DNA from: Candidatus Marinacidobacterales bacterium
GTDB taxonomy: Bacteria; Acidobacteriota; Vicinamibacteria; Marinacidobacterales; DATDRI01
NCBI GenBank assembly: GCA_965219415.1
Contig: CBDCNP010000002.1
Location: 5,088,001-5,152,000, forward strand
Direction: 5' to 3'
DNA length: 64,000 nucleotides
Shown: one piece after another, positions 5,545-27,279 of the stretch
Layout of the letters: each line of letters opens with the position of its first letter
Numbering within the stretch: the first letter of the stretch is position 1
The notes under the pieces: generated by a model
Database searches by the model: none
Told to the model about the DNA's origin: nothing
What the model saw: only the letters and a program-made list of their open reading frames with translations
Made by a program: the position numbers and the translations under genes

Positions 5545-6268
5545 AGATTCGCACGTTCGCGGGCAACAAGAAGACACCGAGTTGGGTCTTCGTTACAATC
5601 GAAGTCTGGTCTCGGCTCTGGCCATCGACGGTGACGGGAAGGCGAAGCTACCGGAACACTCACGCTCTGTTTCGCGACCTTTCGAGACGGATGAATTTCG
5701 AGCGTCTTCCCTTGATCGTCACGGATGGATTCGAATTCTACCAGAAAGTCATCCGTCGCTTCTTCGGTCCAGCGTGTCTCTACGGCCAGGTCCTAAAAAC
5801 GCGCAGGAACGATCGCATCATCAAGGTCGAACGCAGAGCGCTGCACGGAGCCGCGTGGCGATTCGAAGACGCGCTCAATAACTCCGAGGACTCTTCGACA
5901 TTGAACACGTCGTTCATCGAGCGGTTGAATCTGACCATCCGGCAAAGCTCGGCATACCTTTCGAGACGAACGCTTTCCCACGCTCGCTCGACGGAGAGGC
6001 TCGATGAGCACCTGGAGTTGCTCCGTTGCTATTACAACTTCGTCCGACCGCACGGAGCTCTGAAGTTCGGACGTGAGATCCGAACTCCGGCTATGCAGGC
6101 TGGTCTGACGACGCGACGGCTCACCTTTCGAGACATCTTCTTGGCGACGACGATTCCTTTGTGGTCGCGGATCGAGGTTTTCGTGCTCAGTAGGGTGCGC
6201 AACCCGGTCTCTCCCGCACCTGTACCACTGCCCGCAGCCGCGTAGCAACACTTGATGGCGGAAGCACC
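5545..6268 (+). mobile_element. 5'-truncated IS1-family transposase (CDS to 6245) plus right TIR
   Basis: DEI..F, IVTDG, NTSFIERLNLTIRQ, YYNFVRPH and TPAM motifs; TIR reads GGTGCTTCCGCCATCAAGTGTTG on the minus strand. Confidence 0.8.
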
Positions 6269-15257: not shown

Positions 15258-15525
15258 TACCGGACGTTCGCTCTTTTGCGCCGTAAAGTCCAGTCCAATG
15301 GGCGCTTCCGCGGGTGCGCAGTTCGCGGCCTGCAGCTCGTCCTGCAGCCGATTTGAGCCAGCCAGCCGTGCGTACCCCAGTGGGTCTGTCGCCCGCCACC
15401 CGCAGCCCAGGGGTCGGAAGCACGCCCCGCGGCGCGAAATACCCTGGATTCTGCGCGGATTCCAAGGGCGTCTAAGCTGCTGATTTGTGGTCTATTTCTA
15501 AAGGGCCGAGTTTTGGCACAGGACG

Positions 15526-16556
15526 AGGAGGCGTCGCTTCCACACTTCGAAGCCTTCCGCGAAGAAGACCCGCTTCCAGAGCGAGTGTTGAATCAGATCT
15601 TGGTGGGGGTATCGACCCGAAATTACGAATCGAGTCTGAACAAACCCGCGGCCAAGTTGAAGTCTCGTGGCACGAGTAAGAGTGCCGCCAGCCGTCACCT
15701 CGTGAGCCAGACGACTAAGAAGCTCGAGGAATACCTGTCTCGGCGGCTAGAGGAGTTCGAGCTTGCGGCACTGATGCTGGATGGCCTTGAGGTGGCCGGA
15801 CAGACCGTCGTCGTAACTCTAGGTATCACAATAGATGGAACGAAGGTGCCCCTGGGTATATGGCTGGGCTCGACGGAGAACTCTCGGGTGTGCACCGCGA
15901 TGTTGCAGGACCTTCTCGAGCGAGGCTTGCGCGTCGATGAGTCGATTCTCTGCGTAGTGGACGGAGGCAAAGGCATCCGCAAGGCACTCGTCGACGTTTT
16001 GGGGGACCTCGCGGTCATCCAAAGGTGCCAGATCCATAAACTCCGAAATCTTCGCTCGTACCTTCCCAAGTCTCGTCACGCCTACGTGCTCCAGACGATG
16101 AAGGAAGCCTACAAGTGCAAGAGTGCCGACAAGGCGCGCAAGCGACTTCAGGCATTGGTGTCGTGGCTCGAGCGAAACGGCTACGACGAAGCTGCCGGAA
16201 GCCTTCGTGAAGGGATGGAAGAGACACTCACGGTCGTGAAGCTCGCGCTGCCCGCCTTACTTCGCCAGTCTCTTGCCACGACGAACGCCATTGAGAATCT
16301 CAACGGAACCATTCGCAGAGTATCGAGAAACCTCAAGCGTTGGAAGAGTCCTTCCATGGTTCGCCGATGGACCGCTCTTGGCGTCGTCACCGCGCAGAAA
16401 AAGTTCCGGCGTATCAAAGGCTATCGCCATATGGGCGCTCTCGTTCACGCGCTTAGAAGCAAACAGAAATCTCTTGACAGCGATGAGTTTGCTGCCTAAG
16501 AGTATTCACAGGTGCCGTCGCTACCCGACCAAATTCAACAGCGGCCGGGACATCCC
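15526..16556 (+). mobile_element. 5'-truncated IS256 element (CDS to 16499)
   Basis: GVSTR, LMLDG, VDGGKG, QRCQIHK and TTNAIEN motifs; end ...TTCAACAGCGGCCGGGACATCCC. Confidence 0.88.
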
Positions 16557-16756: not shown

Positions 16757-17047
16757 TCAGTACTTAGACGGCGGCTCGGCTCTCTCGGCTGTCTCGGTAG
16801 GTGGGGTATATATCGCGACGCGGCGCTTTGCGGCGGCCTCGGGAGTCTCTTTGCGTCTCTGGATCGCTTCGTCGGCTATTTGGTAGGCGAGATCGGTCAT
16901 GCGCTCGACCATCATCCCACCGTATCGGCCGACCAGGCCCTCGAGGGCTTGTCCAGCAAACCAGTCGCGCAGACTCATCCCGCGATTAGCTGAGTTCGGA
17001 TCGTACCCAGGAAAAGCTGGACCGCCGTTTTTGATTGAATCTGCCAT
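16757..17047 (-). CDS. Phage-type hypothetical protein
   Basis: GGPAFP...GMSLRDWFAGQAL...AYQIAD motif recalled from small phage proteins; AGGAGA RBS. Confidence 0.7.
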   Translation of the reverse strand: MADSIKNGGPAFPGYDPNSANRGMSLRDWFAGQALEGLVGRYGGMMVERMTDLAYQIADEAIQRRKETPEAAAKRRVAIYTPPTETAERAEPPSKY

Positions 17048-17217
17048 GGTTCTATCTCTCCTTTTTCTGGCGGGTGCGCCGGGCGGAGGCCAGGAAGGCA
17101 GGCAGGATTGTCGCCCCCCCGAGGTTCGTGACCCAGCGCACCCATCATCTATTCGACGTTTTTACGAAACCCTAGCGTAAGCACGGCGATCATGAGCATT
17201 CGTCTTAGCATTTGTTC

Positions 17218-17435
17218 GGTACTTCCGCAATTAAGTGTTGGCGGCCAGCCCCTAACCGGTCTGCGTGCTAGAGTTTGAACCAGAATTCCGAAGACACAGT
17301 TCTCTCATCGTCAGAGCCGAGCCGAAGTGAAGAATCGCAGATGTCTCAATCTCACATGTCCGTTGCGAGGCAAAGTCAGTTCCAGAAACATCGTTCGCCA
17401 CGGATTCCACCGAACCAGGTCCGGGAAGCGCCGTC
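17218..17435 (+). mobile_element. IS1-family left end plus N-terminal zinc-ribbon fragment (from GTG 17327)
   Basis: TIR GGTACTTCCGCAATTAAGTGTTG; translates KNRRCLNLTCP..NIVRHG..RSGKRR. Confidence 0.7.
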
Positions 17436-17536
17436 GGTGCTTCCGCCATCAAGTGATGGAATGGACTCCTCCACTGACATAGACGGCATCGATGTGCCAA
17501 AGTCAGTCGAATACGCATCGAAAAGGAGGAGTCCGA

Positions 17537-18568
17537 ATGAAAGATACGACAATCGCTGTGGATCTTGCAAAGAACGTCTTCGAGATTGCCATCTCGGGAG
17601 AAGCGGGGAAGGTGTCCAAGCAACTCCGTGTGAGTCGACCCAAATTGGTGTCGTTCTTTGCCAAACAGAGCGCTGCCACCGTGCTTCTCGAAGCCTGCGG
17701 CTCGGCTCACTTCTGGGCAAGGACGTTCCGAAGGTTGGGACACGACGTCGTCCTGCTCCCACCTCACCTCGTGAGGCCGTATCGACGCGGGAGCAAGAAC
17801 GACCGCGCCGACACGAAGGCGTTGCTCGAGGCCTACAGGAACGAGGAGCTTCTTCCCGTACCCATCAAGTCCGTGCACCAGCACACCCTCGCTGCGCTCC
17901 ATCGCCTGCGCTCAGGATGGCTCTCCACACGGACCGCACGCATCAATGCCGTACGCGGGCTCCTGCGCGAACTCGGATTCATCATCCCAAAGGGCGCTCA
18001 CTTCGTCGTGCCCGCCCTCTTCGAACTCGTCGAAGACGCTGATTCTGATTTGCCCGACGTGCTCCGTTCGCATCTCCGTGATGCCTGCTCCGAGATTCGA
18101 GAACTCAAGGACAAGTGCGCTAGCATCGAGCACGAGCTCAAGGCGCTCACCAAGCAGCTTCCTGAAGTCCAACGACTTCTCGCCATTCCCGGCATCGGAC
18201 TTCTGGCCGCGACCGCCATCGTGGGCTTCGTCGGCGATCTTCGCCGCTTCCCATCGGGGCGCCGCTTCTCGAGCTACCTCGGCCTAGTTCCCAAGGAAAA
18301 CTCCAGTGGCGACATTCGCCGCCTCGGACGCATCACCAAGCGTGGCGACTCCTACCTCCGTATGCTCCTCACCCAGGGCGGGCGCGCCGTGCTCCGCGCG
18401 GCGAACGTCAGCAAGAGCCCGCCCGACAAGCTCCGCGCCTGGGCTCGGAAGGTCCACCGCTCGCGGGGACACAACAAGGCCGTGATTGCTGTCGCCAACA
18501 AACTCGCCCGGATCGTCTGGGCCGTCTCCACCCGCGAGAGTGAATTCCAGTCGCCGGTGGCCGCTTAG
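17537..18568 (+). CDS. IS110 DEDD recombinase/transposase
   Basis: AVDLAK, LLEACG, KNDRAD, PGIG, LGLVP..NSSG and AVANKLAR motifs; AGGAGG RBS. Confidence 0.95.
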   Translation: MKDTTIAVDLAKNVFEIAISGEAGKVSKQLRVSRPKLVSFFAKQSAATVLLEACGSAHFWARTFRRLGHDVVLLPPHLVRPYRRGSKNDRADTKALLEAYRNEELLPVPIKSVHQHTLAALHRLRSGWLSTRTARINAVRGLLRELGFIIPKGAHFVVPALFELVEDADSDLPDVLRSHLRDACSEIRELKDKCASIEHELKALTKQLPEVQRLLAIPGIGLLAATAIVGFVGDLRRFPSGRRFSSYLGLVPKENSSGDIRRLGRITKRGDSYLRMLLTQGGRAVLRAANVSKSPPDKLRAWARKVHRSRGHNKAVIAVANKLARIVWAVSTRESEFQSPVAA

Positions 18569-18599
18569 ATTTAGAGGCTCCACTTTCGTGTTTTCCTTT

Positions 18600-18800
18600 T
18601 TCCCTTCCAAAAGAGGCTGCGACGATACCCATCCAACTGATGGCGTACCGGTCGGACCGGCGCGGGGTCAAGCCAATAGCAACACTGGCCCTAAGAGGTC
18701 GTTCAAAGTGATTGGCTCCTCGCGCGCGGATTTTCCATCATGGCCCGGAGCACCCAAGACGCTCCTCACTGAGGCCGAAGATACGTTTGCAGTCTGACCC
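18600..18800 (+). ncRNA. Predicted bridge/seek RNA (boundaries approximate)
   Basis: Loop 18671-18717 carries TAGCAACAC and AAGTG (target); loop 18726-18790 carries TTCCATCAT and AGATA (donor junction). Confidence 0.8.
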
Positions 18801-19366
18801 ACTCGTCACGACGCGATGGATGCGCAGCTTCGATGGAAGATTTATTAAGAAAGGGGCGTGACTAGAAAGAAAGGGGCTTGACTAGAGGAGTCCAGATATG
18901 TTGGCGGCCGCCGCGTAACCTGTTCGCGTGCTAGAGTCTTAGCCTGATTTCGAGAGGCGCAGTTCTTTCGTCGATGCCGGCTGGGCCGAGTTTTGGCACA
19001 GGACGCGATCCCGTATGGTGCAAATAGTACGTCGAGCTCGCGTCGGCCTGTGGAGGGTTGATGACCGGATCTGCGCAAAGCGAGGATTCGATGGGCCGCG
19101 AGCCGAGGTCAATGCCACGACGATACGAAACCCACGGGGCGGCTCGGACGGCACTCGACGCTGGGCCCATCCGCGTCCTGGTCCTGGGGAAAATCGTCTA
19201 GCAAACGGTTGCCGAGACCCTGGTGATTTCTCCTGCACAGGCCTGGATCCGATGGCATCGTCAGACATATCGCCCCTTATCCAAGCACATTTGCCACGTC
19301 GGCTCGCTTGACCGGCGCATAGGCGCCCCGTAGGATACCGTAGGCCTCACCGAAAAGGAGCTTCCG

Positions 19367-21025
19367 ATGAGTATTCTTTCGATCCTTCCACTCGCCATCT
19401 TTCTGTCCGGTTCGGCAACACCTCGGATCGAGCCGGAGCTGCTGGGAGGCTGCATTTTGACCGCACCCCTGGGCGAAGTTCCTGATGATCTGTATCAAGA
19501 AAGCGGCGTTGTCGCGACCGACGCCTACGGCCCCTTCACGAAAAAGCTCACCGTGTACGGCATCACTTTGATCGCGCGCGGCGATGCCTCGGACGCCTTC
19601 CTGAAGAGAGTGGCCGAGACCATCAAGGAAACTTTCCCACAGGACGAGAGAATGGGCCTCGCGCTCCAAGAAGAGCTCATCAAAAACCTGTACCGGTACA
19701 AAACAACCATTCCCGTTCCCAAGGGTCGGGACATGAGCTTCATCGAGCCAGACGAGACGACATGGCAACGCGTCGAAAGCAAAAACTCTATCTGCGACAT
19801 CATTATGGAATTGGGGAGCGTGCCCGGTCAGGTGATGGAGGTCGTGGAGCACATTCTGCATTTCGTGAGCGACATTGGCCTTCACTACACGTTCCCGAAG
19901 GAGTGGGGAATCTCGAAGGAATCGAAGCTCTGGCAGGCGATGCAAGAAGCGGTGGAGAAAGGTTACTACGACATCTCGTCCTACGCCGACATCGACGACG
20001 AGAAGGTTCGCGACCGGGTAACGCTCCAAGAGTTTGCCTACTGGTTCATCTCCACAGCATGGAACCTGCAGGAGCCCTATGGACCGAAGGGCGAGGAGGA
20101 ATGGACCATCAAGGATGCCTCCGACCTGCAAGCCAAGCTGCCCGACTTCTACGAAGTCTATGAGCAAACGGCGCGAAAGGTCATGGTGGCGCCGAGCCTC
20201 GCGACGCTCGAGAAATTCGGTCCCAAGACGTCGGACGTGGAAACACTAGGCTACAACATCGTCCTTGCGGGCAAAGTGAAAGACGCCACCGAGCTCATCG
20301 GATTCAACACTTCCGACAACAGGAGCGAGCAGCTGACTTCCTCGGTGGGTTTCGCGGGTTTTCCGGTGTGGTCCCCCCAGGGCAACCGAATCGCCTTTCT
20401 CGCCAAGAAGGAGGGCGGCCTGGATCTAGTCGTGATGGACACCGACACCAAGAACATTTCCGTGCTCGTTCCCGACATCCGTGACCCGGCAGACTGGGGC
20501 CCGCAGGGCAGGCGCATGCTCGTCACCAAGCCTCTCGACGGCGGTGAGCGCGGCCTTTTCATCGTCAATCTAGCCGACGGGGCAGAAAAACGCGTTGAGA
20601 CCGGCAGCTCGTCGGACGCCTATGCCAGATGGTCGAGATCGGGTGACGCCATCACGTACGAGTCGAGCCGCGACGGAAACCCGGAGATCTACCGCACCGA
20701 GCTCGAGTCCGGAAAAACGACCCGCCTTACCAAGAATCCCAGCCTCGACGAATGGCCCTCACCGTCACCCAGCGGCAGGCGCATCGCCTGGGCCTCGGGA
20801 AGCGAGGAGGAAAAGGACCTTTGGATCATGCAGGCCGACGGCTCGGACAAGAAGCAGCTCACCCAGGGAATGTTGTTCGGAGACGGGTTTCCCGCGTGGT
20901 CGCCCAATGACAAGCAGATCATGTTGACGGTGCAAGAAAACGACGCATCCGTCCTGAAGCTCATCAACGTCGAGACCGGACAAGCAACCCACATCGCCGA
21001 GGGCTCCCAACCTTCCTGGCGTTGA
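19367..21025 (+). CDS. Secreted protein: unknown (zincin-like) N-terminal domain plus TolB-like beta-propeller
   Basis: Signal peptide; EHILH motif; repeated PxWSP.G PD40-like repeats. Confidence 0.75.
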   Translation: MSILSILPLAIFLSGSATPRIEPELLGGCILTAPLGEVPDDLYQESGVVATDAYGPFTKKLTVYGITLIARGDASDAFLKRVAETIKETFPQDERMGLALQEELIKNLYRYKTTIPVPKGRDMSFIEPDETTWQRVESKNSICDIIMELGSVPGQVMEVVEHILHFVSDIGLHYTFPKEWGISKESKLWQAMQEAVEKGYYDISSYADIDDEKVRDRVTLQEFAYWFISTAWNLQEPYGPKGEEEWTIKDASDLQAKLPDFYEVYEQTARKVMVAPSLATLEKFGPKTSDVETLGYNIVLAGKVKDATELIGFNTSDNRSEQLTSSVGFAGFPVWSPQGNRIAFLAKKEGGLDLVVMDTDTKNISVLVPDIRDPADWGPQGRRMLVTKPLDGGERGLFIVNLADGAEKRVETGSSSDAYARWSRSGDAITYESSRDGNPEIYRTELESGKTTRLTKNPSLDEWPSPSPSGRRIAWASGSEEEKDLWIMQADGSDKKQLTQGMLFGDGFPAWSPNDKQIMLTVQENDASVLKLINVETGQATHIAEGSQPSWR

Positions 21026-22143
21026 GCGAGCCGATCGTGACTGCGTCCTGTGCCAAAACTCGGCCCTCTTGAAATAGCCGATAAATCAGCAGCTTAGCGT
21101 CTATGTTTTGCGATGGTGCCAAGGGCCGTGGGCTTTACAATCGTCTGGCCCGAGGGTGTTATCTTCGGATCCATCATGACGTACCATGTGCAATTCCTAC
21201 TGTTGGTCAGGCAGCCGTTGTTCGATCGGGCAGCCCTGCTGCTCACACAGACCTCAAGGGTGCTTCCGCCATTAAGTGTTGGTAAAATGACACTAAGACT
21301 TTACGGTGCATTAAATTACAGCCATGGTCTTTCAAAAGGGCCGAGTTTTGGCACAGGACGGGTTCCGATTGTACTTAGCCTTTCCCCTCGTGTCCAAAAG
21401 GATGCGTCCCTAAGGCTGTCCTGTACCAAAACTCGGCCCTTTTGAAATAGACCATAAATCAGCAGCTTAGCGACTGGGCCAAGGGCCCCCTAGGCTTTAC
21501 AGTTACCCAAACCCGCGGTCGACCTTCGAGAGCCGCGGCCGTTTCACCGGACGGCAGAGGACGGCGAACTGCTGCCGAAGAGCGACATTGTCGAGAGCCA
21601 GCTCGCGATGAGCCTTGAAGGCGAAGATGAGAGCGGGAACCAACGACGAAATCATGCCGACATGGTGCCGACAGACCGGAGACTAATCAAGTTCGGGGCA
21701 CCCGGATGAAATAAATAGAAGGCACACCACGTTGTCCCTTCCATTTAATCGATACGAATGGCGTCGTGTCCAAAAACACAAACGAACTCAAGACCCACGC
21801 GCCGGGACGTTTCGGAATCATAGGTAGGTCCTGGGGTTCCCGGCTCCCGTCCTGTCCAAAAACACAAACGAACTTGAGATCCGCGTGCCGGGCCGTTTCG
21901 GATTAGAGGTGTCTAGGCTTGGTTGGCCATGGAAGCTAGAATCCTCGGTCATGAGGATGCCTATTGGTCGTCGCCCTGGTGCTTCCGTCATCAAGTGTTG
22001 GTGAGATGACGCTAAGACTTTAAGGTGCATTAAGTTACAGCCAAAATAGTGCTCGTGACCTTCGCTGCGCGCTAAATGGAGCGTAAGCGCCTATTTTGCA
22101 AGGGGATACATACATATTACCAACACTTAATGGCGGAAGCACC

Positions 22144-22585
22144 GGGCTTTGCTGACCACGGCTTGGTTGGTGGTCGATTCGATAATCGGCGACACATCGC
22201 CACCGTGGGTTCGAGCCCGGTACTCCGCTTCGATACGCAGCCCGTCAAAGGCATAGCCGACGCTCAGACCGCCTGTGAATCCGTAGCCCGGCGAGAAGCC
22301 GTTCGAGGAGAGTGCACGCGGCGTCGTGTCCATGCATTCTGGATCACTACTTGGTGCTAGGGCCGGACTGGCATAGAGCAGCTTGTCGCACTTCGTCGGG
22401 TTCGTTACCGCAGAGACGGACGAGTCCAGCCGCGCGGAGTTCGTGAGACCGACGTTGAGGCCGACATAGACACCGCGCCGGCTCTCCTGAGCGCTGGCCG
22501 TGCCGACGAACAGGTACGTGAGCATCGCTGCGACGGCAACCGTGCGGTGTGCGTGACGATTCCCCGTTTGAGAGAAGTTGTGCAT
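22144..22585 (-). pseudogene. Outer-membrane beta-barrel protein, 3'-truncated
   Basis: Signal peptide, GVYVGLNVG and GGLSVGYAFDGLRIEAEY; cut by a MITE. Confidence 0.7.
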
Positions 22586-22856
22586 GAGAGGAATTCTATA
22601 TCCGAGGGTGGGTGGTTGTGCAACGCACGCGGATGAATAAATAGAATGCACAGGACTTTCCTCTCATCCGAAACCGTTCGGCGCGACGGGACGTTTCGGA
22701 TGCCTGCGATGGTCGGCCGCTTCTGGCCGGGTTTCTTTTTTGCGGATCACAGCCAACTATAATTAATGATGAAGGACACGCAACCGACCTCGCATCGCCC
22801 AACAGGGACTGCAACCTGCTGACCCGCCGGGCCTTTGAGTATTTTGACCAGACGCC

Positions 22857-23207
22857 ATGCGCGCCTCGCGGCTGCCGGCCGTGAAGACGCTGGCGCAGTT
22901 CGACTTCACCTTCCAGCCCAGTATCAAGCGGGAGCAGATCGAGAGCCTGCACGAGCTCGGTTTCCTCGAGCGTGCCGAGAACGTCATCCTGCTAGGGCCG
23001 CCCGGCGTGGGCAAGACGCACCTGGCCATCAGCCTGGCCGTTGCGGCCGCCGAGGTGGGCCGCCGCGTCTACTACGGCACGTTAGCCAGGTTGATCGACT
23101 CGCTCACCGAAGCCAAGGCTGCGGGCAACCTCTCCCGGCGCCTGCGAGTGCTGACACATCCGGCGCTGCTCGTGGTGGACGAGATCGGCTACCTCCCGGT
23201 CAGGTAG
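22857..23207 (+). pseudogene. istB: IS21 IstB fragment
   Basis: FDFTFQP, GPPGVGKTHL and VVDEIGY motifs; truncated at both ends. Confidence 0.85.
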
Positions 23208-23563
23208 AGAGACAATCATGGAAATCCTGAAGCTGGAGAACGAAATTAAGAACATCACTCCACATTTTCAACCAGCCACACTGCCTTCTGATTTGACTGA
23301 AACCTAGTTCCGCCCTATAGTCCAACCTGCCAAACGAACCAGCGTGTGCCCATCTACGTCGGGTCGCCCGCTGAATAAAACACCCTCTCCATGGGGAATA
23401 GGTGGGAAACCTGCAAGTACGCATGCTGGTTTGTTTGGCGACTGGCCCGATGACCAATTTAGGGCGTCGGGAAGAAGCCAAAAGGAGCACCCAATGCCCA
23501 TGCCCGCCGAAAGTGACAACCGATACACATATACGCCGAAGAACAAGTGGTGAGGGCCAATCC

Positions 23564-23785
23564 ATGGGGACGAATACTCAAAACGCAGAACCCAAAGAGC
23601 CCACCTGGACGGAGAAGCTCGGTATCAAGAACAAGAGGACACGGAAGCTCATGGAGGCCGGCGGTGAGGGCCTAAGCCTTATCCTCCTGTTATACCTAGC
23701 TGGCTATGCGTTCGTTATTCTTTTCTCCATTGCGCTCCTGGGCGGCTGTATGGTTCTTTTCCTAACGATGGCTCTATCAATATAG
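23564..23785 (+). CDS. Small membrane protein (paralog 1)
   Basis: EPTWTEKLGIK followed by a hydrophobic tail containing GGC. Confidence 0.55.
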   Translation: MGTNTQNAEPKEPTWTEKLGIKNKRTRKLMEAGGEGLSLILLLYLAGYAFVILFSIALLGGCMVLFLTMALSI

Positions 23786-23811
23786 CTCTATGAGCTAACA
23801 GGGAGGGGCAG

Positions 23812-24064
23812 ATGACAGACAAACAAGAGAACGCTGGGCAGCATGTTGCAGACCCACAGCCGGAGCCGTCACACAGAGAACCGACGTTGCTGGAGAAGCT
23901 CGGCGTCAAAGAAGGCAGTACAGCACAGGGTCTTGTGGAAATTGTTGGCGAGAGCCTTCGGTGTTGGTATCTTGGTAGCCCTCGGGCTCATGGCGATCTT
24001 TGTTCTCATCGCTCTCGGCTTCATTGGAGGCTGTGTGGTCTTTCTGTCCAAGGCGGGTTCATAG
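23812..24064 (+). pseudogene. Small membrane protein (paralog 2), frameshifted near 23952
   Basis: GGGAGG RBS; EPTLLEKLGVK; hydrophobic GGC tail in the shifted frame. Confidence 0.5.
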
Positions 24065-24489
24065 CGATCACTGCCAACCCGTATGGTGCAAATGGTACGT
24101 CGAACTCGACGTCGGCCCGTGGAGGGTCGATGACGGAATCTGCGCGAAGCGAGGATTCTATGGGCGGTGCTTCCGCAATCAAGTGTTGGTGGCTGCCGCG
24201 TAACCCGCTCGTGTGCTAGAGTTTGAGCCTGATTTCGAGAGACGCAGTTCTTTCGGCGATGCGGATTGGGCTGACCACACGGTGCCTGACGTTCAGGGAC
24301 ACCTTCGTGTGCACGCCGACATCATTGTTAATGGCGTTCGCCGACACAGGCAGGCCAGCTGACACTAGCATTCAAACACGGCGTAGCAACATATCTGGAC
24401 TCCTCTAGTCAAGCCCCTTTCTTTCTAGTCACGCCCCTTTCTTAATAAATCTTCCATCGAAGCTGCGCATCCATCGCGTCGTGACGAGT

Positions 24490-24690
24490 GGGTCAGACTG
24501 CAAACGTATCTTCGGCCTCAGTGAGGAGCGTCTTGGGTGCTCCGGGCCATGATGGAAAATCCGCGCGCGAGGAGCCAATCACTTTGAACGACCTCTTAGG
24601 GCCAGTGTTGCTATTGGCTTGACCCCGCGCCGGTCCGACCGGTACGCCATCAGTTGGATGGGTATCGTCGCAGCCTCTTTTGGAAGGGAA
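24490..24690 (-). ncRNA. Predicted bridge/seek RNA, copy 2 (boundaries approximate)
   Basis: Same sequence as copy 1; target loop at 24573-24619. Confidence 0.8.
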
Positions 24691-24721
24691 AAAGGAAAAC
24701 ACGAAAGTGGAGCCTCTAAAT

Positions 24722-25753
24722 CTAAGCGGCCACCGGCGACTGGAATTCACTCTCGCGGGTGGAGACGGCCCAGACGATCCGGGCGAGTTTGTTGGCGACA
24801 GCAATCACGGCCTTGTTGTGTCCCCGCGAGCGGTGGACCTTCCGAGCCCAGGCGCGGAGCTTGTCGGGCGGGCTCTTGCTGACGTTCGCCGCGCGGAGCA
24901 CGGCGCGCCCGCCCTGGGTGAGGAGCATACGGAGGTAGGAGTCGCCACGCTTGGTGATGCGTCCGAGGCGGCGAATGTCGCCACTGGAGTTTTCCTTGGG
25001 AACTAGGCCGAGGTAGCTCGAGAAGCGGCGCCCCGATGGGAAGCGGCGAAGATCGCCGACGAAGCCCACGATGGCGGTCGCGGCCAGAAGTCCGATGCCG
25101 GGAATGGCGAGAAGTCGTTGGACTTCAGGAAGCTGCTTGGTGAGCGCCTTGAGCTCGTGCTCGATGCTAGCGCACTTGTCCTTGAGTTCTCGAATCTCGG
25201 AGCAGGCATCACGGAGATGCGAACGGAGCACGTCGGGCAAATCAGAATCAGCGTCTTCGACGAGTTCGAAGAGGGCGGGCACGACGAAGTGAGCGCCCTT
25301 TGGGATGATGAATCCGAGTTCGCGCAGGAGCCCGCGTACGGCATTGATGCGTGCGGTCCGTGTGGAGAGCCATCCTGAGCGCAGGCGATGGAGCGCAGCG
25401 AGGGTGTGCTGGTGCACGGACTTGATGGGTACGGGAAGAAGCTCCTCGTTCCTGTAGGCCTCGAGCAACGCCTTCGTGTCGGCGCGGTCGTTCTTGCTCC
25501 CGCGTCGATACGGCCTCACGAGGTGAGGTGGGAGCAGGACGACGTCGTGTCCCAACCTTCGGAACGTCCTTGCCCAGAAGTGAGCCGAGCCGCAGGCTTC
25601 GAGAAGCACGGTGGCAGCGCTCTGTTTGGCAAAGAACGACACCAATTTGGGTCGACTCACACGGAGTTGCTTGGACACCTTCCCCGCTTCTCCCGAGATG
25701 GCAATCTCGAAGACGTTCTTTGCAAGATCCACAGCGATTGTCGTATCTTTCAT
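24722..25753 (-). CDS. IS110 DEDD recombinase/transposase
   Basis: Same protein as 17537-18568. Confidence 0.95.
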   Translation of the reverse strand: MKDTTIAVDLAKNVFEIAISGEAGKVSKQLRVSRPKLVSFFAKQSAATVLLEACGSAHFWARTFRRLGHDVVLLPPHLVRPYRRGSKNDRADTKALLEAYRNEELLPVPIKSVHQHTLAALHRLRSGWLSTRTARINAVRGLLRELGFIIPKGAHFVVPALFELVEDADSDLPDVLRSHLRDACSEIRELKDKCASIEHELKALTKQLPEVQRLLAIPGIGLLAATAIVGFVGDLRRFPSGRRFSSYLGLVPKENSSGDIRRLGRITKRGDSYLRMLLTQGGRAVLRAANVSKSPPDKLRAWARKVHRSRGHNKAVIAVANKLARIVWAVSTRESEFQSPVAA

Positions 25754-26010
25754 TTGGACTCCTCCTTTTCGATGCGTATTCGACTGACTTTGGCACATCG
25801 ATGCCGTCTATGTCAGTGGAGGAGTCCATTCCATCACTTGATGGCGGAAGCACCGGTCTATTTCAAAAGGGCCGAGTTTTGGCACAGGACGGGGTCGTCA
25901 CCATGCAGATTGACCACCTAGTCGAGAGCGAATATCCAAGCGTGTTCCTGAAGCTGTTTTCACGCTACGCCGAGCGGGCCCACCGAGGGGCTACCGTCGC
26001 CAGCGACCAT

Positions 26011-27077: not shown

Positions 27078-27279
27078 GGAGCTGAAGATAACACCCTCAG
27101 GCCAGACGATTGTAAAGCCTACGGCCCTTGGCCCCGGCGCAAACACAGACACTAAGCTGCTGATTTATGGCCTATTTCAAAAGGGCCGAGTTTTGGCACA
27201 GGACGGGGACACATCTATTGAATCTGTCATGTGCTACTCGTGACACTTCCCTGATCGGAAGCACCCGGCTTCCCATGGC

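What the first reader, a model, noticed from the sequence alone, without database searches (positions are those of the whole stretch)
17436..25854. Both IS110 copies sit at the same nucleotide of an IS1-family terminal repeat: a transposon targeting another transposon's ends
Copy 1 splits GGTGCTTCCGCCATCAAG-TG-TTGGCGG (an IS1-type left end). Copy 2 splits CGTAGCAA-CA-CTTGATGGCGGAAGCACC, identical to the intact right TIR at 6241-6268, and follows an IS1 transposase tail (~24255-24385). Copy 2's site matches the left guide fully; copy 1's matches only 5 of 8, implying mismatch tolerance. More than ten related unoccupied TIRs (MITEs, orphan ends) are in the window. Known analogy: IS4321/IS5075 target Tn21 TIRs. 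Inference: insertion gives a self-expanding safe harbour and would disable the IS1 end, possibly restraining IS1-driven deletions. The inverted pair could also invert 18899-24391.
Basis: partly seen in the sequence, partly recalled or inferred. Interest (0 to 1): 0.8.

Follow-up and report, generated by a model that had tools for sequence, protein, structure and literature searches.

The report
RNA-guided IS that targets IS1-type ends
A small RNA-guided jumping gene of the IS110/IS1111 family has copied itself about thirty times in this genome, each time into the same nucleotide of the end-repeat of another jumping gene (an IS1-family element and its miniature derivatives), a clear new example of a behaviour already known from a few other such elements.

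Summary
The two window copies (17456-18900 +, 24390-25834 -) are 1445-bp IS1111-type elements differing by one base. The genome holds 30 full or near-full copies plus fragments. All 33 left ends abut the outer 20 nt of one terminal inverted repeat (TIR). 29 of 30 right ends abut TTGCTA, the inner part of the right TIR; window copy 1 is the only insertion in a TTGGCG-type left end.

The TIR belongs to a 1.2-kb single-ORF IS1-family element and its ~244-bp MITEs. Occupancy is 28 of 115 TTGCTA-type sites against 1 of 362 other TIR-like sites. The copies are nearly identical (two alleles), while their host elements all differ, so these are separate recent insertions.

The 3' non-coding region encodes a bridge/seekRNA-like fold. 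Its guide segments match target and element ends, and they co-vary with different targets in three diverged relatives.

Precedents are in print: IS1383 into IS1384 inverted repeats, and IS4321/IS5075 into Tn21 TIRs, including the "safe harbour" idea. Verdict: a new member of a known kind. Effects on IS1 mobility and inversion remain untested.

The parts
17436..17455 (+). Outer 20 nt of an IS1-family TIR (GGTGCTTCCGCCATCAAGTG), the left flank of copy 1. TG at 17454-17455 is the shared core.
17456..18900 (+). Copy 1 of the IS1111-type (IS110 family) element, 1445 bp, counting the right-hand TG.
17462..17471 (+). Left subterminal inverted repeat TGGACTCCTC. Its partner GAGGAGTCCA is at 18885-18894.
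   Evidence: read
17537..18568 (+). DEDD transposase/recombinase gene, 343 aa. It matches PF01548 and PF02371, scores 302.9 bits against NF033542, and carries the GLVPKENSSG motif.
18650..18799 (+). Predicted bridge/seekRNA scaffold in the 3' non-coding region: an outer stem enclosing a target-binding arm and a donor-binding arm.
18677..18686 (+). Target loop, 5' guide UAGCAACACU. It is complementary to the top strand AGTGTTGCTA (core TG plus right flank).
18702..18710 (+). Target loop, 3' guide UUCAAAGUG. AAGUG has the same sense as the left flank AAG plus core TG, so it would pair with the bottom strand.
18733..18740 (+). Donor loop, 5' guide UUCCAUCA. It is complementary to TGATGGAA (core plus the element's left end).
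18779..18785 (+). Donor loop, 3' guide AGAUACG. It has the same sense as the right end AGATATG, matching 6 of 7. The match is perfect in the 94% variants and in G008/L062.
18901..18989 (+). Inner part of an IRL-type IS1-family end (TTGGCGGCCGCC...), a ~90-nt fragment. It is the host of copy 1 and the only non-TTGCTA site occupied in the genome.
   Evidence: (family D2)
24166..24389 (+). Body of the ~244-bp IS1-derived MITE that hosts copy 2. Its left TIR starts at 24166 and the inner part of its right TIR ends at 24389.
24390..25834 (-). Copy 2 of the element (transposase gene 24722-25753 on the minus strand). It differs from copy 1 by one base.
25835..25854 (-). Outer 20 nt of the MITE's right TIR, the left flank of copy 2.
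6241..6268 (-). Unoccupied right TIR of an IS1-family element, showing the uninterrupted target GGTGCTTCCGCCATCAAGTG|TTGCTACG.
17218..17435 (+). Left end and first ~218 nt of a 1.2-kb IS1-family copy. It is cut off by the TIR that carries copy 1 (nested insertion).
   Evidence: (compared by eye)

Best explanation
The repeat is an active or very recently active IS1111-type member of the IS110 family. It is 1445 bp long and has a 343-aa DEDD recombinase gene, 10-bp subterminal inverted repeats and a long 3' non-coding region.

Proposed mechanism: the non-coding region gives a bridge/seekRNA. One internal loop of that RNA pairs with about 11-13 nt of target DNA, (C)AAG-TG-TTGCTA. A second loop pairs with the element's own joined ends. 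In this genome that target string occurs almost only at positions 16-26 of the right terminal inverted repeat of a 1.2-kb IS1-family element and its MITEs. The element therefore inserts after nt 20 of that repeat, always with its left end towards the outside. Each transposition of the IS1-family element or its MITEs creates a new landing site.

Shown by the sequence:
- the site, the orientation and the site-type preference;
- the independence and recency of the insertions;
- the guide-target and guide-end complementarity, and its co-variation in relatives.

Inferred, not shown: that the RNA is made and bound, that transposition goes through an excised circle, and any effect on the mobility of the IS1-family host.
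For: SITE. 33 of 33 left ends follow the 20-mer, 30 exactly and 3 with one mismatch. 29 of 30 right ends are followed by TTGCTA.

PREFERENCE. 28 of 115 TTGCTA-type TIR sites are occupied, against 1 of 362 other TIR-like sites. Four more occupied sites have truncated copies. Fisher p = 7e-18. The empty 11-mer AAGTGTTGCTA occurs 80 times, 79 of them inside a TIR.

INDEPENDENCE. 24 of 29 complete copies are 1445 bp with only two alleles, 16 and 8, differing at one site. The host flanks fall into four types (A 15, B 11, C 2, D 1) and are all distinct. Type B flanks average 84% identity over 200 nt. 28 of 29 outer 60-nt flanks are distinct.

FAMILY. NF033542 'IS110 family RNA-guided transposase' scores 302.9 bits against a cutoff of 140. 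Both Pfam domains are present, as is the GL-P----SG motif.

RNA. The predicted target arm has stems enclosing a loop with UAGCAACACU on the 5' side and UUCAAAGUG on the 3' side.

CO-VARIATION OF THE 5' GUIDE WITH THE RIGHT FLANK:
- here, AUAGCAACAC with GTGTTGCTAc;
- L040, AUAACAAUCG with tGATTGTTAT;
- G008, GGCAACUGCG with CGCAGTTGyG;
- L062, GGAAGGAUCGU with ACGATCCTT.

DONOR GUIDES co-vary with the element ends:
- left end ATGGAA with UUCCAU, ATGGGA with UCCCAU, ATGAGA with UCUCAU;
- right end AGATACG or ATACACG with AGAUACG or AUACACG.

GUIDE ORDER. The top-strand match lies 5' of the bottom-strand match and the two overlap in the target. This is as described for IS1111 seekRNAs (PMC11187229, section 9).

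RELATIVES. The same element (90-98% aa) in five other genomes of the order sits at the same TIR nucleotide in 43 of 50 left ends. The off-TIR insertions keep AGTG on the left and often TTGCT on the right, with unchanged guides.
Against: - No RNA evidence. Rfam has no matching family. The only RNA run is a small-share metatranscriptome kept as contigs.
- The 3' target guide matches only 5 contiguous nt (AAGUG). The donor 3' guide has a C where the right end has T.
- The structural co-variation rests on 6 sequences, about 4 of them independent. 8 of 43 predicted pairs show compensatory change, and the covariation energy term is only -0.27.
- RNAalifold pairs part of the putative donor guides with each other.
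- No circle junction or locus-specific empty site was seen.
- The target 11-mer is almost confined to TIRs. Within this genome one therefore cannot separate recognition of a short string from recognition of the whole TIR; that separation rests on the off-TIR insertions in G016.
- Terminal extensions beyond the subterminal repeats are 8 and 4 nt (6 and 6 if TG is assigned to the right), not the 7 and 3 described as typical.
Confidence: 0.85

Rival explanations
1. Hitch-hiking. One or a few original insertions into a TIR were then multiplied because the IS1-family transposase moved the composite (outer TIR + IS1111-type element + MITE or IS body) as a unit.
For: The outer 20 nt of the TIR stay intact. 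The left junction reads GGTGCTTCCGCCATCAAGTGaTGG, close to the left-end type ...GTGTTGG. Ten composites of 1660-1700 bp share one architecture.
Against: The IS1111-type copies are 99.97% identical with two alleles. Their host elements are of four types and all distinct, with type B at 84% mean identity. Only 3 of 15 type-A hosts are even full length. Off-TIR copies exist in G016.
Confidence: 0.05
2. Protein-directed targeting. The recombinase, or an interaction with the IS1 transposase bound at its end, recognises the TIR as a whole. On this view the RNA complementarity is incidental.
For: In this genome every insertion is in a TIR, and 79 of 80 empty copies of the 11-mer are also in TIRs, so the two models are confounded here. 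No RNA was observed.
Against: The guide sequences change together with the target in L040, G008 and L062 while the scaffold is conserved. Insertions in G016 at non-TIR sites such as TTTCAAGTG|TTGCTTGA and ATCAAGTG|TTGCTGAG share only the short string. Experiments on IS1111-family members show the seekRNA is required (PMC11187229, abstract and sections 9 and 13 read).
Confidence: 0.07
3. Mis-set boundary. The 20-mer GGTGCTTCCGCCATCAAGTG is the element's own left terminus, so nothing is 'split'.
For: The 20-mer is included in the near-perfect repeat reported by the repeat finder and by blastn.
Against: Uninterrupted sites with the 20-mer directly followed by TTGCTA are common (87; 89 with the 23-mer pattern). 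The 20-mer varies in 3 of 33 copies while the element does not. Seven copies in relatives start at ATGGG/ATGGA after unrelated sequence.
Confidence: 0.01
4. Assembly artefact. A collapsed or duplicated repeat was placed twice by the assembler.
For: Near-identical 1.4-kb repeats are hard to place. The genome's contamination estimate is 8.45%.
Against: The two window copies differ by a SNP and have different flanks on both sides. Thirty copies have distinct unique flanks. The same arrangement is seen in five independently assembled genomes.
Confidence: 0.01

Closest known systems
IS1383 of Pseudomonas putida H, which integrates into the inverted repeats of IS1384 (Muller, Lauf & Herrmann 2001, Mol Genet Genomics 265:1004). 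I saw only the title, in the reference list of PMC11208160. The paper is not held.
   Same: An IS110/IS1111-type element whose specific target is the terminal inverted repeat of another insertion sequence.
   Different: The target IS, the host phylum and the target sequence all differ. The scale here is about 30 copies among about 480 TIR-like sites, including MITEs. I could not read the paper, so position within the repeat, orientation and end preference cannot be compared.
IS4321/IS5075 (IS1111 family), which target the TIRs of Tn21-family transposons (Partridge & Hall 2003). I saw the title in reference lists. Their behaviour is described in PMC8269217, of which I read passages.
   Same: One fixed position and orientation in a transposon TIR. 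Occasional insertion into look-alike sites (ureC there; IRL-type and non-TIR sites here). The 'safe harbour' reading is stated in PMC8269217.
   Different: The target there is a 38-bp Tn3-family TIR on plasmids of Enterobacterales. Here it is an IS1-family IS and its MITEs on the chromosome of an acidobacterial lineage. Here only one of the two ends is preferred, and the guide match explains why.
IS1111-family seekRNA elements ISEc11, ISKpn4, ISPa11 and ISPst6 (Siddiquee et al. 2024, PMC11187229: abstract and sections 6, 9 and 13 read, plus passages), and IS621 bridge RNA (Durrant et al. 2024, PMC11208160: passages read).
   Same: A DEDD recombinase of 330-350 aa, subterminal inverted repeats and a long non-coding region downstream of the gene. 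The RNA has one segment complementary to the top strand lying 5' of one complementary to the bottom strand, overlapping at the core. No target duplication. Natural re-programming among close relatives.
   Different: The targets of those elements are REP sequences, attC sites or other sites. The terminal extensions here are 8 and 4 nt rather than 7 and 3. The RNA here is predicted only.

Membership tests
IS110 family (DEDD recombinase IS) | Recombinase with an N-terminal DEDD/RuvC-like domain and the C-terminal IS116/IS110/IS902 domain. | tested here: met
   PF01548 scores 45.9 bits (cutoff 29) and PF02371 scores 85.5 bits (cutoff 21.3). NF033542 scores 302.9 bits (cutoff 140).
IS110 family (DEDD recombinase IS) | No long terminal inverted repeats and no target-site duplication beyond a shared core. 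| tested here: met
   Occupied sites compared with empty ones show that only the TG dinucleotide is shared.
IS1111 group | Subterminal inverted repeats (usually 11-13 bp; 7-17 bp according to Durrant et al.). | tested here: met
   TGGACTCCTC at 17462-17471 pairs with GAGGAGTCCA at 18885-18894: 10 bp, perfect.
IS1111 group | The longer non-coding region lies downstream of the recombinase gene. | tested here: met
   The 5' non-coding region is 81 nt (17456-17536) and the 3' one is 332 nt (18569-18900).
IS1111 group | Recombinase of 330-350 aa with a GL-P----S(t)G motif. | tested here: met
   343 aa; the motif reads GLVPKENSSG.
IS1111 group | Asymmetric terminal extensions of 7 (or 6) bp on the left and 3 bp on the right beyond the subterminal repeats. 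| tested here: not met
   With TG assigned to the left, the extensions are 8 and 4 nt. With TG assigned to the right, they are 6 and 6. This is a minor departure, and it depends on where the repeats are taken to start.
Bridge RNA / seekRNA-guided recombination | The non-coding RNA has segments complementary to both strands of the target, overlapping at the core, and to the element's joined ends. | tested here: met
   Complementarity is shown. Co-variation with different targets and ends in L040, G008 and L062 is shown.
Bridge RNA / seekRNA-guided recombination | The RNA is expressed, binds the recombinase and is required for transposition. | not testable with these tools
   Rfam has no matching family. 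Only Logan contigs were available.
IS1 family (the target element) | Transposase with an N-terminal zinc finger, a helix-turn-helix and an IS1-type DDE domain. | tested here: inconclusive
   NF033558 scores E 9e-24 but 84.5 bits, below the cutoff of 100. The IS1/IS1595 zinc domain scores 19.9 bits, below 28. PF03400 scores 21.6 bits, below 24.1. However, many 65-86% identical relatives carry precomputed PF03400 and are named 'IS1 family transposase' by JGI.
IS1 family (the target element) | Terminal inverted repeats starting GGT, and 8-9 bp target duplications. Both criteria are recalled from general knowledge of IS1, not taken from a call. | tested here: inconclusive
   The TIR of about 23 bp starts GGTGCTTCC. 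No flanking direct repeat of 4 bp or more was found at 0 of 29 full-length copies and 0 of 19 MITEs.

The most novel reading that the evidence does not exclude
The element may be an obligate 'parasite of a parasite' whose spread tracks and limits an IS1-family lineage. It fills the right-end repeats until few remain. G034 has 2 empty 23-mer sites against at least 23 occupied TIRs. G016 has no empty sites, 6 of its 11 left ends lie off-target, and a re-programmed guide variant (L040) has appeared in G034. By separating the IS1 end from its body, the element would immobilise the copies it enters. In this genome full-length IS1 copies are occupied less often than truncated ones (3 of 32 against 12 of 40, p = 0.04). 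This would be a natural system in which guide re-programming is driven by exhaustion of target sites.
Probability: 0.2. Interest if true: 0.55.

Novelty: new member of a known kind. Interest (0 to 1): 0.35.

Why it matters
This is a large, clean natural data set for an RNA-guided recombinase. There are about 30 near-identical donors and roughly 480 related candidate sites in one genome. The preference for the site type that matches the guide is 24% occupancy against 0.3%. One insertion has three distal guide mismatches. Sister genomes show site saturation, off-target use and a naturally re-programmed guide.

That is useful for understanding the specificity and mismatch tolerance of IS1111-type bridge/seekRNAs. 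It is also useful for annotating IS-rich acidobacterial genomes, where nested IS1/MITE/IS1111 composites will otherwise be mis-called.

It does not reveal a new principle. IS110/IS1111 elements that target the ends of other transposable elements, and the safe-harbour argument, are already in print.

Tried and rejected
- Rfam scan of 17300-19000 at E up to 1: only a sub-threshold miRNA hit inside the recombinase gene (22.5 bits against a cutoff of 70), taken as chance. No bridge or seekRNA family matched.
- Sigma-70 promoter scan of 17350-19000: none found. Two terminator-like sites, no more than in the shuffles.
- Sequencing runs: 24 runs were listed, all kept as Logan contigs. Four were laid on 16800-19600. 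The contigs break at the repeats. The joints and loose ends seen (for example TIR 20-mers joined to TTGG...) are other copies of the repeat families. No right-end-to-left-end circle junction was seen, and no empty site or inversion could be assigned to this locus. The RNA run X20 gave a few contigs at 92-99% identity over the recombinase gene; this does not show transcription.
- Whole-region MFE folding: z-scores were only -2.9 and -1.7, and part of the putative donor guides was paired. I relied on comparative evidence instead.
- Target-site duplications of the IS1-family element, wanted as a way to test hitch-hiking: none were found, so the test was uninformative.
- The papers on IS1383/IS1384 and on IS4321/IS5075 are not held. 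I know them by title only. Supplements of PMC11187229, which may list other IS1111 members with IS-end targets, were not seen.
- Searches for a printed case of an IS110-family element targeting an IS1-family end found none. These were keyword searches of open-access text only.


Full report
WHAT IS THERE

The window lies at G000:C3:5088001-5152000 of an 8.05-Mb, three-contig genome. The repeat finder reports an inverted pair, 17435-18903 and 24387-25855, of 1469 nt. Reading both copies shows one difference: G at 17535 in copy 1, A in copy 2 (99.93%).

Each copy has a 343-aa ORF (17537-18568 +; 24722-25753 -). The protein carries both IS110-family Pfam domains. It scores 302.9 bits against NCBIfam NF033542 'IS110 family RNA-guided transposase' and has the motif GLVPKENSSG.

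The element has:
- a short 5' non-coding part of 81 nt;
- a long 3' non-coding part of 332 nt;
- perfect 10-bp subterminal inverted repeats (17462-17471 and 18885-18894).

This is the IS1111-type layout as described in PMC11187229.

BOUNDARIES

Occupied sites were compared with uninterrupted ones. An example of the latter is 6241-6268, whose reverse complement reads GGTGCTTCCGCCATCAAGTG|TTGCTACG. The comparison places the element at 17456-18900 and 24390-25834, 1445 bp. A TG is shared between target and element, and there is no duplication.

GENOME-WIDE

blastn finds 30 hits of 1431 nt or more, plus fragments.

- All 33 recognisable left ends are preceded by the 20-mer: 30 exactly and 3 with one mismatch. 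Upstream of the 20-mer the sequence is unrelated.
- 29 of 30 right ends are followed by TTGCTA.
- The one exception is window copy 1, which is followed by TTGGCGG.

The orientation is always the same: the element's left end faces the outside of the host element.

THE TARGET

The 20-mer begins the roughly 23-bp terminal inverted repeat of a 1200-bp element. That element has about 30 full-length copies (29 of 1190-1215 bp) and many MITEs of about 244 bp.

Its single ORF is best matched by the NCBIfam IS1 model, with E 9e-24 but 84.5 bits, below the cutoff of 100. Relatives 65-86% identical carry Pfam PF03400, and JGI names them 'IS1 family transposase'. I accept 'IS1 family' with that caveat.

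The two ends of the element differ just inside the insertion point:
- the left end reads ...AAGTG TTGGCGG;
- the right end reads ...AAGTG TTGCTACG.

SITE CHOICE

The genome has 481 sites within 3 mismatches of the 20-mer.

| Site type | Occupied | Empty |
|---|---|---|
| TTGCTA-type | 28 | 87 |
| TTGGCG-type | 1 | 90 |
| Remaining types | 0 | 271 |

Four further occupied sites carry truncated copies with no right end in range. TTGCTA-type against all other types gives Fisher p = 7e-18.

The empty 11-mer AAGTGTTGCTA occurs 80 times, 79 of them inside a TIR. None of the 138 empty TGTTGCTA 8-mers outside a TIR has a neighbour copy.

INDEPENDENT, RECENT INSERTIONS

- 24 of 29 complete copies are 1445 bp long and fall into two alleles, 16 and 8, differing at one site.
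- Their hosts are of four kinds: 15 in ends of the 1.2-kb IS, 11 in the 244-bp MITE, 2 in a third type and 1 in a left end.
- Every host flank is distinct. MITE flanks average 84% identity over 200 nt.
- 28 of 29 outer 60-nt flanks are distinct.
- Only 3 of the 15 IS hosts are full length, against 29 of 57 unoccupied ones (p = 0.04).

This pattern argues against spread by hitch-hiking and against assembly artefact.

THE GUIDE RNA

In the 3' non-coding region a conserved scaffold folds into two arms closed by an outer stem.

The first arm has an internal loop.
- Its 5' side, UAGCAACACU (18677-18686), is complementary to the top strand AGTGTTGCTA.
- Its 3' side, UUCAAAGUG (18702-18710), ends in AAGUG. 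That has the same sense as AAG plus the core TG, so it would pair with the bottom strand.

The second arm carries two segments.
- UUCCAUCA (18733-18740) is complementary to TG plus the element's left end ATGGAA.
- AGAUACG (18779-18785) has the same sense as the right end AGATATG, matching 6 of 7.

The order of the matches (top strand 5' of bottom strand) and their overlap at the core follow the description of IS1111 seekRNAs.

Comparison is decisive here. Relatives keep the scaffold but change the guides together with their flanks.

| Element | 5' target guide | Right flank |
|---|---|---|
| L040 (94% aa, in G034) | AUAACAAUCG | tGATTGTTAT |
| G008 (61% aa, two copies) | GGCAACUGCG | CGCAGTTGyG |
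| L062 (46% aa) | GGAAGGAUCGU | ACGATCCTT |

L062 also has a 3' guide GUCUUUG beside the left flank GTCTTTG.

The donor guides track the element ends:
- left ends ATGGAA, ATGGGA and ATGAGA go with UUCCAU, UCCCAU and UCUCAU;
- right ends AGATACG and ATACACG go with AGAUACG and AUACACG.

The sample is small: 6 sequences, 8 of 43 predicted pairs compensatory, and a covariation term of -0.27. The RNA itself is not observed. Rfam has no matching family.

The guide explains the preference for one end. Copy 1 is thus a natural insertion with three distal mismatches.

RELATIVES

The recombinase is found at E up to 1e-30 in 7 of 41 genomes of the same order, counting G000. That is 0 of 7 in the same family, 6 of 17 in a second family and 0 of 16 in a third.

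In the species collection, the close relatives (89-98% identity) all lie in five records titled 'Candidatus Marinacidobacterales' MAGs. The next best hit is 46% identical.

- Of 50 left ends in those five genomes, 43 follow a TIR-type 20-mer, and all 50 follow AGTG.
- Of the 7 that are not in a TIR, 6 are in G016 and one is the re-programmed L040.
- The G016 copies have unchanged guides.
- Their sites, for example TTTCAAGTG|TTGCTTGA and ATCAAGTG|TTGCTGAG, share only the short string with the TIR.

This shows that a short sequence, not the TIR as a whole, is recognised.

Empty 23-mer sites (at most 1 mismatch) number as follows.

| Genome | Empty sites | Element found? |
|---|---|---|
| G000 | 89 | yes |
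| G034 | 2 | yes |
| G016 | 0 | yes |
| G018 | 31 | yes |
| G014 | 14 | fragments |
| G026 | 71 | fragments |
| G022 | 44 | no |
| G003 | 27 | no |
| G002 | 19 | no |

The target is therefore more widespread (13 of 41 genomes) than the element.

WHAT IS KNOWN

- IS110/IS1111 elements use a bridge RNA or seekRNA (PMC11208160, passages read; PMC11187229, abstract, sections 6, 9 and 13, and passages read).
- Targeting of transposon ends is known for IS4321/IS5075 in Tn21-family TIRs (title seen; behaviour and the 'safe harbor' wording in PMC8269217, passages read).
- Targeting of another IS's inverted repeats is known for IS1383 in IS1384 (title only).
- Keyword searches found no printed case with an IS1-family target. 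They cover open-access text only, and supplements were closed.

VERDICT

It is a new member of a known kind, an IS1111-type element with an IS1-family TIR as its natural target. It is documented here at unusual depth, with a guide that explains the preference for one end.

Still untested:
- whether insertion disables the IS1 end;
- whether it restrains IS1-driven deletions;
- whether the inverted pair flips 18901-24389 (one search had contigs only).

The left junction regenerates a TIR-like 24-mer, GGTGCTTCCGCCATCAAGTGaTGG. Loss of IS1 mobility should therefore not be assumed.

Noticed in passing
genome-wide; examples at L001:101-1300 and window 24166-24389: The 1.2-kb IS1-family element and its ~244-bp MITEs show no target-site duplication. 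None of 29 full-length copies and none of 19 MITEs has a flanking direct repeat of 4 bp or more. This is unusual for IS1-like elements.
   Followed up: partly
window 15472-15529, 21037-21108, 21418-21476, 25855-25896, 27141-27212: A second repeat family has ends GTCCTGTGCCAAAACTCGGCCC...GAAATAGAC(C). At several loci it directly abuts the IS1-type TIR, including the outer flank of copy 2 and of four other copies. This suggests nested or preferential insertion between IS families.
   Followed up: no
G034 and G016 (loci L024-L061): G034 has only 2 empty 23-mer target sites but at least 23 occupied TIRs. G016 has none, and 6 of its 11 left ends are outside TIRs with unchanged guides. This looks like site saturation followed by off-target insertion.
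   Followed up: partly
L040:1481-2841 (G034): A 94%-identical recombinase variant has a re-programmed target loop, AUAACAAUCG / UUUGCAGC. It is inserted at CTGCTCCAGTG|ATTGTTATCC, a non-TIR site matching the new guide.
   Followed up: partly
L024, L032, L033, L036-L039, L049: Partial tandem or self-insertions occur. The element's right end is joined to internal sequence of another copy, for example ...CCAGATATG|ATTGCTGTCGCCAAC inside the recombinase gene, at sites that resemble the target.
   Followed up: no
window 18851-18890: There is a 20-bp tandem duplication near the right end (two GGGGC(G/T)TGACTAGA units). It is present in the 1445-bp copies and absent from the two 1425-bp copies in this genome and from the G034 copies.
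   Followed up: no
G000:C3:5595310-5599470: Two element copies in inverted orientation face each other across 1226 bp made of two truncated IS1-family right-end fragments placed head to head. This may be a rearrangement product.
   Followed up: no
window 19367-21025: The segment between the two copies carries a 552-aa ORF with PD40 / DPP-IV N-terminal beta-propeller repeats. This ordinary gene would be flipped if the pair recombined.
   Followed up: no
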